Part shown: piece after piece, positions 42,301 through 45,300 of the stretch
Layout: every line of letters starts with the position of its first letter
How positions within the stretch are numbered: position 1 is the stretch's first letter
DNA from: Escherichia coli
GTDB lineage: Bacteria; Pseudomonadota; Gammaproteobacteria; Enterobacterales; Enterobacteriaceae
Direction: 5' to 3' (one strand)
DNA length: 64,000 nt
NCBI RefSeq assembly: GCF_022846255.1
Contig: NZ_AP025682.1
Position numbers: made by a program

Positions 42301-45300
42301 GCGAAACTGGGGTAGCCATGAGAATGTTCCTCCGGATGTTGTTAAACCAGCCGGTGTGGTCATGAAAACAGCGCGCCACCTTCACCGGCATAACAACCGG
42401 GGAGAAACGTAAAAAATAATCGGGAATGTGGCTGTCCGGAGATAAACGGGGGGATTGCGATGGCAGAGCCGTAGCGGAATCCCGGGGGGGGGGGGTGTTG
42501 CGAAAAGATGCTTCCGCACGCACGCGCGATAAAGAGGGGATAGTTTTCGTGAGGACAGGGAGAGAAGCAGGCGTTCTGATAATTGCAGAGTTGTTTTCGG
42601 AGGTGGTTACAGTGAGTCAGCCCGTTCCTGGCGAGCAGGAGACTGATATCACCGATGGGATAAGGTTGTCTGATTGGTATTATAAATATAAGAAGTCATC
42701 AGAGAGTAACGTAAAGGATTTGCCAGAATAACCTAAGAGAGTAAATCTCTCCGGTAACAGAGCGCTGTGAAGCATTCTGTATCAGAGTGCAGATACATGA
42801 ACGCTGATGCGTAAAATCAGCAGTGACACGCCAGCTCCCCCTATGCCCATTCCTGTATAAGACATGAACTGAGTGTATTAATGCTTCTGCCCTGAGACTG
42901 AGCCGGTGAGTGAGGGGCTGAGAAATCCCTCTTGACACAGCTCTAACCAGAAATACTTCCCCGGTTGTTGCGGTGCGTCCGGATCCCCGATAACGGAACA
43001 CTAAGGCTGTATTGCGGGACACCGGGTAAGTAGCAGCCCGTAAGGCGTTCTGTCAACGCCAGAAAAAATGATTTCCCACACGCGTTATAGACTCACTCCT
43101 GTGGACCTGGAAGCCCGTAACTCTGCGGTTGCCCACTGACTGACGGAACTGACCGCAAATTTTACGAGTGCGTGCTGGGCTTCAGTCTGGTCACCTGAGC
43201 GTTCGGTAACGGAGGCGCGGGCGGTAATAGGCTGATTTTCAGGTATTACCGGCTTACAGCGTGTGGTTGATATTGAGGGGCTGTGAGTTTCGCGTATTTG
43301 TCAGAAACCCAGACGAGTTTTCCTGTATGGGACGAAATAAGGCAGCGGCAATACCTGGAAAAATTTAATATGGTATGAAGGAGAACCTGTCGGTTACGCT
43401 TAATATACCCGGTACACTGTCAGCTCAGGGGATACATGAACCGTTATCTCACCAGCTACACAGTATATACACACTGACGCTGACAGTAGTCAGCAGGACC
43501 ACAATAATCAGTGCCAGCAGTATGGTAACGATACGGTCTGTATTCCGGTAATAGCCGAAGGGGTCGACAGAACCACAATACGGGCAACACACTGTATTAT
43601 GAGTAATCGCGTTTCCACAGTCCCTGCACTTCTTTTTGCGTATCACCATCACTCCCTCCTCACAGCCTTACCCGTAACCGGTTTTTTACATTAAAAAAAC
43701 AACGCTGAAAATTCAACCGTCAGTCCGGAGACGACCGTTCGGGTTATCACAGAGTGCCTGAGACAGTGTCCTGCCGGAGGTCACTTCAGGGACTCTGCGC
43801 ATTTTTTACGACGTGGCTATTCCGTATGAACCATACGGAGATTTAACCATGACCTACAAATACAACCCCTTCTGGCAGCAACGTATTCGTGAGACGGTGC
43901 GGCACGCACTGAATGTTCATCCCCGCCTGACGGCATTGCGGGTTGACCTGCGTTTCCCGGATGTACCGGCAGCAACGGACGCAGCTGTGATATCCCGCTT
44001 CATCAATGCCCTGAAAGCCCGAATCGACGCTTACCAGAAACGTAAGCATCGGGAAGGTAAACGCGTGCATCCCACAACCCTGCATTACGTCTGGGCCCGG
44101 GAGTTTGGGGAGTGCAAAGGTAAAAAACACTATCACCTGATGCTGCTGGTTAACCGGGATACCTGGTGTCGTGCCGGTGATTACCGTGCTCCGGGATCAC
44201 TGGCCGGGATGATTAAACAGGCGTGGTGCAGTGCCCTGGGAGTGGATGTCGGGTGCCATGCCACGCTGGTGCATTTTCCGGCCTGGCCGGCGGTGTGGCT
44301 GGAACGCGATGATGACACTGGCTTTCAGCAGGTGCTGGAACGTGCTGACTATCTGGCGAAGGAACATACCAAAGCTCACTGCACCGGTGAGCGCAATTTT
44401 GGCTGTAGCCGGAGTTGAGCACGACTGGCGCGCCAATACCCGGCAAACCAAAAGTATGGGTTGTTGTCTGGCGGCAACGATGTATCCACTCGCCCACTGA
44501 CTGTTTTTTACGTCAGTGTTCCATTGTGTGACAACCACAGTGCTGTAACAGCAACCAGCCTGCTTTACCCAAACTCCAGTCCAGATTTTAACTGAACCGC
44601 CATTCACACCCTGACCACGCTGCCCGTACCGGGACGGCTGTTGCCTGCGTGTCGTCTGGCGGCTGAGGAATATGACTATGTACGCAAAATCCTTTATCGC
44701 TCTTGATGGCAACGGACGTCTGACGGGCGCCCGTACTGCACAGGCCGCACCTTATGCTAACTACACCTGCCACTTGTGTGGCAGTGCACTCAGATACCAT
44801 CCGCAATACGACACTGAACTTCCCTGGTTTGAACACACTGACGACAGGCTGACAGAGCACGGTCAACAGTGCCCTTATGTCAGGCCGGAGCGCAGAGAAA
44901 TACAGTTGATTAAACGTCTGCAGCAATTCGTACCGGATGCCTTACCCGTGGTGCGTAAAGCCAGCTGGCACTGCAGACAATGTCACCACGATTATTATGG
45001 GGAGCGGTACTGCACACACTGCCAGACCGGAGGATTCAGTATTCCCCGGACAACTCAGGAGGAAATATGCGAATTCTGAACTGTTATATGGCGAATGACA
45101 GCAAAGGCCATTTTGTTACGGCGAAAGAAGCAGCGAAGCACAACCGCCAGGACGTTTTGTGCTGTGTGTCCTGTGGATGCCCGTTAACACTTCAGCGGGG
45201 CAATGACGGACAACCACCGTGGTTTGAACATGACCAGATGACTGTCGCTGAGAAAATCCTGCTGCGATGCACCTGGCTTGACCCGGCAGAGAAAGAGGCC

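What the first reader, a model, noticed from the sequence alone, without database searches (positions are those of the whole stretch)
42484..42495. G12 homopolymer upstream of the AlpA-like regulator gene
A run of 12 consecutive G residues is rare in enterobacterial chromosomes and is the type of tract that undergoes slipped-strand mispairing. It lies about 165 bp upstream of the alpA-like start, where length changes could alter promoter spacing or a small upstream frame. It could equally be an assembly artefact at a homopolymer.
Basis: seen in the sequence. Interest (0 to 1): 0.45.

Follow-up and report, generated by a model that had tools for sequence, protein, structure and literature searches.

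The report
Hypervariable poly-G tract upstream of alpA
The run of 12 G's is real: it is a slippage-prone repeat in an E. coli genomic island whose length ranges from 9 to 19 G's even between near-identical strains, but nothing found here shows that it acts as a genetic switch for the neighbouring AlpA-like regulator gene.

Summary
**Observation.** G12 lies at 42484-42495, 165 bp upstream of the ATG (42319, minus strand) of a 68-aa AlpA-family gene. It is the longest homopolymer in the window. The next G/C run is 7, and about 0.003 runs this long are expected by chance.

**Not an artefact.**
- Nine other complete E. coli genomes carry the identical G12TG allele.
- Sister isolates share the same length.
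- The older SMS-3-5 genome has G14TG.

**Hypermutable.**
- Six genomes whose 40-kb flanks differ by only 3-15 SNPs carry G12TG, G13, G16, G16, G17TG and G19TG.
- In the four pairs checked, the tract was one of only three indels, and the only one in a homopolymer.
- About 110 of 5,426 genomes carry uninterrupted runs, spread over 11 length classes.
- The interrupted allele GGAGGGGGGTG is identical in 450 genomes.
- More distant copies have GGGTGGTTG. The run is therefore a recent product of losing an interrupting base, followed by slippage.

**No evidence of a switch.**
- The tract sits at the least conserved position of the intergenic region. One copy tolerates a 13-nt deletion beside it.
- No sigma-70-like promoter uses it as a spacer.
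- The ORFs across it are not conserved.

**Verdict.** It is a genuine, unusually long E. coli microsatellite and is probably near-neutral. A regulatory role is untested.

The parts
42484..42495 (+). G12 homopolymer (C12 on the alpA strand): the hypermutable mononucleotide repeat
   Evidence: Read directly. Allelic series in other genomes: G9-G19.
42496..42497 (+). 'TG' dinucleotide between the run and the conserved TTGCGAAAAG. It is part of the variable segment; in some relatives the T is lost or changed so that the run absorbs it (pure G13, G14, G16).
   Evidence: 702/18 has G13, SBF22 and MSB1_7A have G16, APEC E16002 has G14, against G12TG, G14TG, G17TG and G19TG in others.
42113..42319 (-). 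AlpA-family helix-turn-helix regulator/excisionase-like gene (68 aa)
   Evidence: Pfam PF05930 E=1.8e-5; PHROG 66/2790 'excisionase and transcriptional regulator'; PGAP WP_000235214.1.
41417..42019 (-). 200-aa hypothetical gene immediately downstream of alpA-like on the same strand (probable operon partner)
   Evidence: PGAP WP_000813432.1. No Pfam, NCBIfam or PHROG match.
42320..42432 (-). Highly conserved alpA-proximal block (96% mean identity across copies that are only 78-95% identical overall). It contains a predicted long hairpin that pairs GUUUCUCC with the Shine-Dalgarno GGAGGAAC.
   Evidence: Conservation. Consensus fold: all pairs invariant, so no covariation support. Single-sequence z = -1.2.
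42433..42483 (.). Poorly conserved spacer left of the tract (81% identity). One diverged copy lacks 13 nt here.
42496..42535 (.). Conserved block right of the tract (93% identity), including a 14-nt alternating pyrimidine-purine run CGCACGCACGCGCG at 42515-42528
42400..42699 (.). Strongly strand-asymmetric region: G 108 against C 46 on the + strand (GC skew +0.40; +0.35 without the tract). A minus-strand (alpA-sense) RNA would be C-rich and G-poor. The skew is conserved (0.33-0.40) in all diverged copies.
   Evidence: Only about 0.02% of 300-nt windows in the 64 kb are as skewed.
42655..42715 (.). AT-rich block holding the best promoter-like hexamers of the intergenic region on both strands. 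Minus strand: TATATT 42690-42685 and TATAAT 42684-42679. Plus strand: TGgTATTAT 42675-42683. If the minus-strand site drives alpA, the tract lies roughly 180-200 nt into a leader of about 350 nt.
   Evidence: Own PWM scan. Scores of 8.4-8.8 are about the background median, so these are suggestive only. The stricter tool scan found none.

Best explanation
The G12 is a genuine, hypermutable mononucleotide microsatellite. It changes length by replication slippage.

Origin. It arose recently in one haplotype of a CP4-44-type E. coli island, when a G-rich but interrupted sequence lost its interrupting base. Distant copies have GGGTGGTTG and the common haplotype has GGAGGGGGGTG. Once uninterrupted at about 9 G, the run became unstable and has drifted to anywhere between 9 and 19 G in different strains.

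Position. It lies in a poorly conserved, indel-tolerant spacer between two conserved blocks, upstream of an intact AlpA-family regulator gene. The surrounding 300 nt is intrinsically G-rich on this strand.

Shown: the tract is real, it is heritable, and it is far more mutable than its surroundings.

Inferred: the length changes are largely neutral by-products, not an evolved on/off switch. If they affect alpA at all, the effect is most likely a graded one. It could act through the distance between the conserved blocks, or through the C-run in a long C-rich, G-poor leader RNA (for example by altering Rho loading).
For: Reality and rarity.

Not an artefact:
- Nine other complete genomes carry the identical 82-nt allele.
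- Sister isolates have equal lengths: DETEC-P649/P666, KN13-4/KN12-1, WR3-3/WR14-2, GN03551/GN03139, MSB1_7A/3B.
- SMS-3-5 has G14TG.
- Metagenome contigs show G7, G9 and G10.

Hypermutability:
- Six genomes whose 40-kb flanks differ by 3-15 SNPs carry G12TG, G13, G16, G16, G17TG and G19TG.
- In the four pairwise comparisons itemised, only three indels were found: the tract (in three of the four), a single-base non-homopolymer deletion in a GTPase gene, and a 2-nt non-homopolymer indel specific to the window.
- Census of 5,426 complete genomes, by length of the variable segment (13 to 21 nt): 19, 22, 10, 29, 10, 6, 5, 2 and 1 records. In addition, G9TG occurs in 3 and G10TG in 2.

Interruption stabilises the sequence: GGAGGGGGGTG with identical flanks is invariant in 450 genomes.

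Derived state: diverged copies have GGGTGGT or GGGGGGT.

Unconstrained position: column identity is 0.51 at the tract, against 0.96 and 0.93 in the flanking blocks, and a diverged copy has a 13-nt deletion next to it.

No promoter hexamers flank the tract. There is no Rfam family and no conserved ORF.

G-rich context.
Against: - Neutrality is an inference from position and conservation, not a measurement.
- The alpA transcription start is unknown, so the tract could lie in a functional leader.
- The strongly skewed composition of the region is conserved, which hints that the transcript or DNA strand matters. A C-run within it could have an effect.
- Long G/C runs are normally purged from E. 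coli. Persistence of G12-G19 in about 110 genomes across several lineages could reflect tolerance or weak selection.
- Lengths taken from assemblies, many of them long-read, can be off by 1-2 nt. The census by total length also conflates GnTG with G(n+2) alleles.
Confidence: 0.72

Rival explanations
1. Programmed contingency switch. Tract length stochastically sets expression of the AlpA-like regulator, and through it island excision or island gene expression. It would act either by changing the phasing between an upstream operator and the promoter, or by changing Rho-dependent attenuation or folding of a long C-rich leader.
For: - Uninterrupted G:C run above the instability threshold, 165 bp upstream of an intact regulator gene.
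- Multi-step length differences within a near-clonal group.
- The alpA-proximal block can fold to sequester the Shine-Dalgarno sequence, implying a leader of at least about 90 nt.
- The best minus-strand promoter-like sites lie upstream of the tract.
- The minus-strand RNA would be C-rich and G-poor over about 300 nt, the composition that Rho favours (the Rho preference is from general knowledge).
Against: - The run is a recent derivative of an interrupted sequence. It is absent from most copies of the same island family, including the 450 genomes with GGAG6TG.
- It occupies the least conserved, indel-tolerant spot.
- Observed lengths form a broad spread (segment 13-21 nt) rather than clustering at discrete states.
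- No promoter element flanks it.
- The predicted structures have no covariation or energy support.
- The island is decaying, with IS150 and ISL3 insertions and pseudogenes.
Confidence: 0.13
2. Frameshift switch in a small protein-coding gene. The tract lies inside a + strand ORF (42426-42731, 101 aa in the window; an 88-aa version is annotated by PGAP as hypothetical protein WP_000840364.1 in some genomes), or inside the minus-strand frame that runs into alpA (42523-42113, where C12 encodes Pro-Pro-Pro). Length changes would truncate or re-phase that ORF.
For: ORFs cross the tract on both strands. PGAP annotates a hypothetical protein over the site in some genomes.
Against: - In diverged copies the + strand frame is broken by 1- and 2-nt indels, and the N-terminal parts are unrelated.
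- No NCBIfam match.
- In the minus-strand extension, diverged copies carry 1- and 2-nt insertions between the tract and the alpA ATG.
- alpA has its own Shine-Dalgarno sequence and ATG, used by PGAP everywhere.
- A suspected link to the prophage regulator RgdR (RGD motif) was tested and is absent.
Confidence: 0.04
3. Sequencing or assembly artefact: the run does not exist, or its length is an error.
For: Homopolymers of this length are error-prone on all platforms. Reads for the window are not available. A 1-nt error in this particular assembly cannot be excluded.
Against: The same allele occurs in nine other complete genomes, and sister isolates have concordant lengths. SMS-3-5 has G14TG. Independent metagenome assemblies carry G9 and G10. 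The differences of up to 7 nt between near-identical genomes are far larger than typical homopolymer miscalls.
Confidence: 0.03
4. Structure-forming DNA or RNA element with a sequence-specific role: G-quadruplex or i-motif at the G/C run, possibly together with the adjacent Z-DNA-prone CGCACGCACGCGCG.
For: The G12 lies next to a G6 (42450-42455) in a G-rich strand. A conserved 14-nt alternating Py-Pu run lies 20 nt away.
Against: The run is absent in most copies of the region, so it cannot be a conserved structural requirement. A single G12 gives at best a weak two-tetrad quadruplex (general knowledge). Predicted folding of the region is no better than shuffles (z = -0.04).
Confidence: 0.03

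Closest known systems
Simple-sequence contingency loci with promoter or upstream G/C tracts (Neisseria porA/opc poly-G/C, Bordetella pertussis fim poly-C, Campylobacter poly-G); from general knowledge and PMC1891110, PMC5084427
   Same: Uninterrupted G:C mononucleotide run of 9 or more. Length polymorphism between closely related strains. Located upstream of a gene. Mechanism is slipped-strand mispairing.
   Different: Those tracts sit between or beside the -35 and -10 elements, or inside ORFs, are conserved as tracts across the species, and give demonstrated on/off or graded switching. Here the tract is lineage-specific and derived, flanks no recognisable promoter, lies in an unconstrained spacer, and has no phenotype data. 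The host is E. coli, where such loci are rare.
Neutral hypervariable single-nucleotide repeats used as high-resolution typing markers in clonal bacteria (e.g. Bacillus anthracis SNR markers); from general knowledge
   Same: An intergenic homopolymer whose length differs among isolates that are otherwise nearly identical. An interruption abolishes the variability.
   Different: Those are mostly poly-A/T in an AT-rich genome. This is poly-G:C of up to 19 in E. coli and sits on a mobile-element remnant.
Slipped-strand frameshifting at the A7 run in kpsC of ExPEC (PMC13410964)
   Same: A documented example of homopolymer slippage producing reversible variants in E. coli.
   Different: That run is short, coding, and described by its authors as a rare event with a clear capsule phenotype. 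The present tract is much longer, non-coding, and has no known phenotype.
AlpA of prophage CP4-57 / Vis of satellite phage P4 (small HTH regulators/excisionases that turn on integrase expression and excision); from general knowledge, PMC3105296, PMC5148205
   Same: The downstream gene is a 68-aa member of the same Pfam family (PF05930) on a CP4-type island.
   Different: No integrase was noted in the parts of the window examined. The gene is followed by an unknown 200-aa ORF and an IS150. No poly-G tract is described upstream of CP4-57 alpA, and regulation of this paralogue is unstudied.

Membership tests
SSR-mediated phase-variable (contingency) locus | Uninterrupted repeat long enough to be unstable (about 8-9 or more for G/C runs) | tested here: met
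   G12 in the window. Relatives have G9-G19.
SSR-mediated phase-variable (contingency) locus | Repeat number differs between closely related strains, while interrupted alleles are stable | tested here: met
   Five different alleles occur in six genomes that are 3-15 SNPs apart over 40 kb. GGAG6TG is invariant in 450 genomes.
SSR-mediated phase-variable (contingency) locus | Repeat lies within an ORF or within/adjacent to core promoter elements, so that length changes switch expression | tested here: not met
   No -35/-10 pair flanks the tract on either strand. ORFs crossing it are not conserved. The transcription start was not mapped, so a position within the leader remains open.
SSR-mediated phase-variable (contingency) locus | Length heterogeneity within a single culture, and reversible phenotypic switching | not testable with these tools
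   Needs reads or experiments.
SSR-mediated phase-variable (contingency) locus | Tract maintained as a tract across the lineage that carries the gene | tested here: not met
   Most copies of the region have GGGTGGTTG, GGGGGGTTG or GGAGGGGGGTG. Only about 110 of about 2,730 carrier genomes have runs of 9 or more.
AlpA family (Pfam PF05930) for the downstream gene | Significant match to the Phage_AlpA / HTH_17 profile in a protein of about 60-70 aa | tested here: met
   PF05930 E=1.8e-5 over residues 13-59; HTH_17 E=1.9e-4; PHROG 66 E=7e-9. NCBIfam excisionase models score below their cut-offs.
AlpA family (functional sense: activator of a cognate integrase/excision) | Cognate integrase and attachment sites; excision dependent on the protein | not tested
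   No integrase was noted in the parts of the window examined. The island is interrupted by IS150 and ISL3.
Described RNA family (Rfam) overlapping the tract | Covariance-model match | tested here: not met
   No hit at gathering thresholds, nor at E<=1 in 42000-43900.

The most novel reading that the evidence does not exclude
E. coli, a species thought to rely on invertible elements and Dam methylation rather than simple-sequence repeats, would carry a true contingency locus. A G9-G19 tract in the C-rich leader or upstream region of an AlpA-family regulator would stochastically tune that regulator, for example through Rho-dependent attenuation or operator-promoter phasing. This would set the activity or excision of a CP4-44-type island in extraintestinal and commensal lineages.
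Probability: 0.1. Interest if true: 0.7.

Novelty: new member of a known kind. Interest (0 to 1): 0.35.

Why it matters
- Long G:C homopolymers are very rare in E. coli. This one is a natural, population-scale demonstration of how a single base change creates a hypermutable site: GGAG6, fixed in 450 genomes, against G9 and longer, spread over 11 length classes.
- It could serve as a very high-resolution marker for distinguishing isolates within a clone.
- It warns that this site will generate spurious variants and frameshifted 'hypothetical proteins' in assemblies and annotation.
- If length did modulate the AlpA-like regulator, it would be a rare simple-sequence switch in E. coli acting on mobile-element control. 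No evidence obtained here points that way.

Tried and rejected
1. **RgdR lead.** The + strand ORF across the tract contains an RGD motif, and a paper (PMC3378721) describes RgdR, a 99-aa unannotated regulator on a degraded P4-like prophage. I fetched ECs1581 from the Sakai genome and ran tblastn against the window. There is no similarity, so the lead was rejected.

2. **Species-representative genomes.** Two pattern scans of genome contigs, one with IUPAC flanks and one with a plain 22-mer from the right flank, gave 0 hits. No cross-species comparison was possible. Within the collections searched, this haplotype appears only in E. coli and gut metagenomes.

3. **Rfam.** No hit at gathering thresholds or at permissive thresholds.

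4. **Promoter scans.**
   - The strict tool scan found no promoter within about 900 bp of the tract on either strand, and only a weak terminator-like hairpin at 42390-42374.
   - My own relaxed PWM scan, with a matrix taken from memory, found nothing near the tract. The best sites, in the AT-rich block at 42655-42715, score only at background level.

5. **RNA structure.**
   - The 371-nt putative leader folds no better than shuffles (z = -0.04).
   - The hairpin near the Shine-Dalgarno sequence has z = -1.2.
   - The alignment fold has a covariation term of -0.11, because the interesting helices are invariant.

6. **Repeats.** No convincing iterons or inverted repeats surround the tract. There is a short resemblance between GGGGGGATTGCGA (42450) and GGGGGGTGTTGCGA (42490), but it is too short to evaluate.

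7. **Coding test of the + strand ORF.** The frame is not preserved in diverged copies.

8. **Literature.** Searches for a description of this tract, or of simple-sequence switches near alpA in E. coli, found nothing relevant.
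Full report
**1. The observation**

The window reads GGAATCCC-G12-TGTTGCGAAAAG, with the run at exactly 42484-42495.

It is the longest homopolymer in the 64 kb. The next G or C run is 7 nt. About 0.003-0.004 runs of 12 or more are expected from base or dinucleotide composition.

The alpA-like gene is on the minus strand at 42113-42319 (68 aa). It has a GGAGG ribosome-binding site, and PGAP uses the same start in relatives. The protein matches Pfam Phage_AlpA (E=1.8e-5) and PHROG excisionase/regulator families.

**2. Context**

The window is E. coli chromosome. It contains the his operon with its leader and then sbcB, dacD, sbmC, yeeA and tmaR. A CP4-44-type island follows, named by transfer from near-identical annotated genomes:
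- yeeW, cbtA/cbeA, yeeT and yeeS;
- an antirestriction gene and a DUF932 gene;
- a patatin / RdcB / dynamin-family cluster;
- a GTPase;
- IS150.

After IS150 come the 200-aa hypothetical gene and alpA-like on the minus strand. A 1.5-kb 'intergenic' stretch follows, holding an Hha-family remnant and a small zinc-ribbon/TM ORF. Next are a YagK/YfjJ ('inovirus Gp2') gene and two zinc-ribbon genes on the plus strand, and finally a defective ISL3.

The island is a decaying mosaic.

**3. How widespread the region is**

The 401 bp upstream of alpA occur in 3,521 of 5,426 complete E. coli genomes, with a median of two copies per genome.

An alignment of 12 copies spanning 78-100% identity shows alternating blocks, with mean identities:

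| Window coordinates | Mean identity | Note |
|---|---|---|
| 42320-42432 | 0.96 | conserved |
| 42433-42483 | 0.81 | one copy has a 13-nt deletion here |
| 42484-42495 (tract) | 0.51 | least conserved |
| 42496-42535 | 0.93 | conserved |

Distant copies have GGGTGGT or GGGGGGT where the window has G12. The long run is therefore derived, not ancestral.

**4. Is the length variable?**

*Metagenomes.* A pattern scan returned 27 contigs:
- GGGGGGTTG in 10;
- GGGTGGTTG in 9;
- GGAGGGGGGTG in 4;
- one each of G7TTG, G7TG, G9TG and G10.

*Complete genomes.* Short BLAST queries with 34- and 36-nt flanks sort the alleles by total length.
- The window's exact allele is in 9 other genomes.
- The variable segment, which is 14 nt in the window, has these counts:

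| Segment length (nt) | 13 | 14 | 15 | 16 | 17 | 18 | 19 | 20 | 21 |
|---|---|---|---|---|---|---|---|---|---|
| Records | 19 | 22 | 10 | 29 | 10 | 6 | 5 | 2 | 1 |

- G9TG occurs in 3 genomes and G10TG in 2.
- That makes about 110 genomes spread over 11 length classes.

*Alleles I read directly*:

| Strain | Allele |
|---|---|
| SMS-3-5 | G14TG |
| APEC E16002 | G14 |
| 702/18 | G13 |
| SBF22 | G16 |
| MSB1_7A | G16 |
| TUM2330 | G12TG |
| WR3-3 | G17TG |
| MINF_9A | G19TG |

*The interrupted allele.* GGAGGGGGGTG, in identical flanks, is found unchanged in 450 genomes. One A-to-G change converts it to G9TG. This is the textbook pattern of an interruption stabilising a repeat.

**5. Mutability relative to the surroundings**

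The 40-kb segments around the tract in 702/18, SBF22, MSB1_7A, TUM2330, MINF_9A and WR3-3 differ pairwise by only 3-15 substitutions. They nevertheless carry five different tract alleles.

I itemised the indels in four pairwise comparisons. Only three distinct indels appear:
- the tract, in three of the four comparisons (3 or 7 nt in those three; up to 8 nt among all alleles read);
- a 1-nt non-homopolymer deletion in the GTPase gene;
- a 2-nt non-homopolymer indel specific to the window.

The tract is the only one of these in a homopolymer, and it takes five different states in the near-clonal group.

**6. Artefact?**

An artefact is unlikely, for these reasons:
- Sister isolates assembled independently have equal lengths: DETEC-P649/P666, KN13-4/KN12-1, WR3-3/WR14-2, GN03551/GN03139 and MSB1_7A/3B.
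- The older SMS-3-5 genome has a long run.
- Metagenome assemblies show intermediate lengths.
- Differences of up to 7 nt between near-identical genomes exceed normal homopolymer miscalls.

Two caveats remain. A +/-1 error in any single assembly, including the window, cannot be excluded. The census by length also conflates GnTG with pure G(n+2) alleles.

**7. Does it regulate alpA?**

- *Promoter spacing.* The tool scan finds no sigma-70-like site near the tract. A relaxed PWM scan finds none either. Its best sites, on both strands, lie in the AT-rich block at 42655-42715 and score only at background level.
- *Upstream frame, plus strand.* ORFs cross the tract on both strands, and PGAP sometimes annotates a hypothetical protein there. 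However, the + strand frame is broken by 1- and 2-nt indels in diverged copies.
- *Upstream frame, minus strand.* The minus-strand extension into alpA is interrupted in diverged copies by 1- and 2-nt insertions between the tract and the ATG.

A suspected homology to the prophage regulator RgdR (PMC3378721) was tested and is absent.

**8. What the region does show**

The 300 nt at 42400-42699 are among the most strand-skewed in the window. They hold G 108 against C 46 (skew +0.40), or +0.35 without the tract. The skew is conserved at 0.33-0.40 in all diverged copies. The poly-G therefore grew within an intrinsically G-rich strand.

The invariant alpA-proximal block can fold so that GUUUCUCC pairs with the Shine-Dalgarno GGAGGAAC. 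That would imply a leader of at least about 90 nt. All the pairs are invariant, however, and the energy is unremarkable, so this is only a lead.

If alpA is transcribed from the TATAAT/TATATT sites near 42680-42690, the tract would sit about 180-200 nt into a C-rich, G-poor leader. That composition favours Rho (general knowledge). This gives one concrete, testable way in which C-run length could matter. I rate it as unlikely but open.

**9. Conclusion**

The comparison is strongly positive. The artefact alternative is rejected.

The tract is best described as a recently born, hypermutable G:C microsatellite in an unconstrained spacer of a decaying island's regulatory region. There is no evidence so far that E. 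coli uses it as a switch.

It is a new example of a known kind of feature. It is moderately interesting because such long G:C runs, and such clear within-clone variation, are unusual in E. coli.

Noticed in passing
window 42400-42699 (and a second region around 45260-45630): Extreme GC skew (+0.40; G 108 against C 46) over 300 nt upstream of alpA, conserved in all diverged copies of the region. The only comparably skewed stretch in the 64 kb lies near 45.3 kb, in or after the second zinc-ribbon gene.
   Followed up: partly
window 42339-42398 (minus strand): Invariant long imperfect hairpin just upstream of alpA, in which GUUUCUCC can pair with the Shine-Dalgarno GGAGGAAC. This is a possible translational or attenuation control, but there is no covariation (all pairs invariant) and z is only -1.2.
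   Followed up: partly
window 42515-42528: Conserved 14-nt alternating pyrimidine-purine run CGCACGCACGCGCG (Z-DNA-prone), 20 nt to the right of the G tract.
   Followed up: no
window 42571-42592: Invariant block GCGTTCTGATAATTGCAGAGTT containing an imperfect palindrome TCTG-ATAATTG-CAGA. It could be an operator for an island regulator.
   Followed up: no
window 35470-36381 (minus strand): The yeeP-like GTPase gene is intact in the window, MINF_9A and WR3-3. It carries a 1-nt (G) deletion, annotated as 'frameshifted', in TUM2330, MSB1_7A, SBF22 and 702/18. This marks a subclade within the near-clonal group.
   Followed up: partly
window 30887-35252 (minus strand): Three-gene cluster on the island: patatin-like phospholipase, RdcB-family protein and a 798-aa dynamin-family protein. 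Names are transferred from near-identical annotated genomes. It looks like a cargo or defence-type module and was not examined.
   Followed up: no
window 43035-43250 and 43449-43652: The 1.5-kb alpA-yfjJ 'intergenic' region holds a remnant of an Hha/YmoA-family gene, which is intact in more distant copies such as L011. It also holds a 67-aa zinc-ribbon plus transmembrane ORF on the minus strand (WP_001297900.1).
   Followed up: partly
L042 (strain 702/18) 20345-21573: In one near-clonal relative, an IS3-family element has inserted about 260 bp to the right of the tract, inside the same intergenic region. This is further sign that the region tolerates disruption.
   Followed up: no
window 14596-14719, 17017-17091, 58887-59010: Rfam hits unrelated to the finding: His leader, STnc240 and STnc490 sRNAs.
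   Followed up: no
window 39505-40874 and 46154-47137: An IS150 copy lies next to the 200-aa gene, and a defective ISL3 transposase (internal stop in relatives) lies after the zinc-ribbon genes. The IS150 junction is shared by carriers that appear to be from distant lineages (SMS-3-5, APEC O1:K1:H7, CE2050). This suggests the island variant spread after the insertion.
   Followed up: partly
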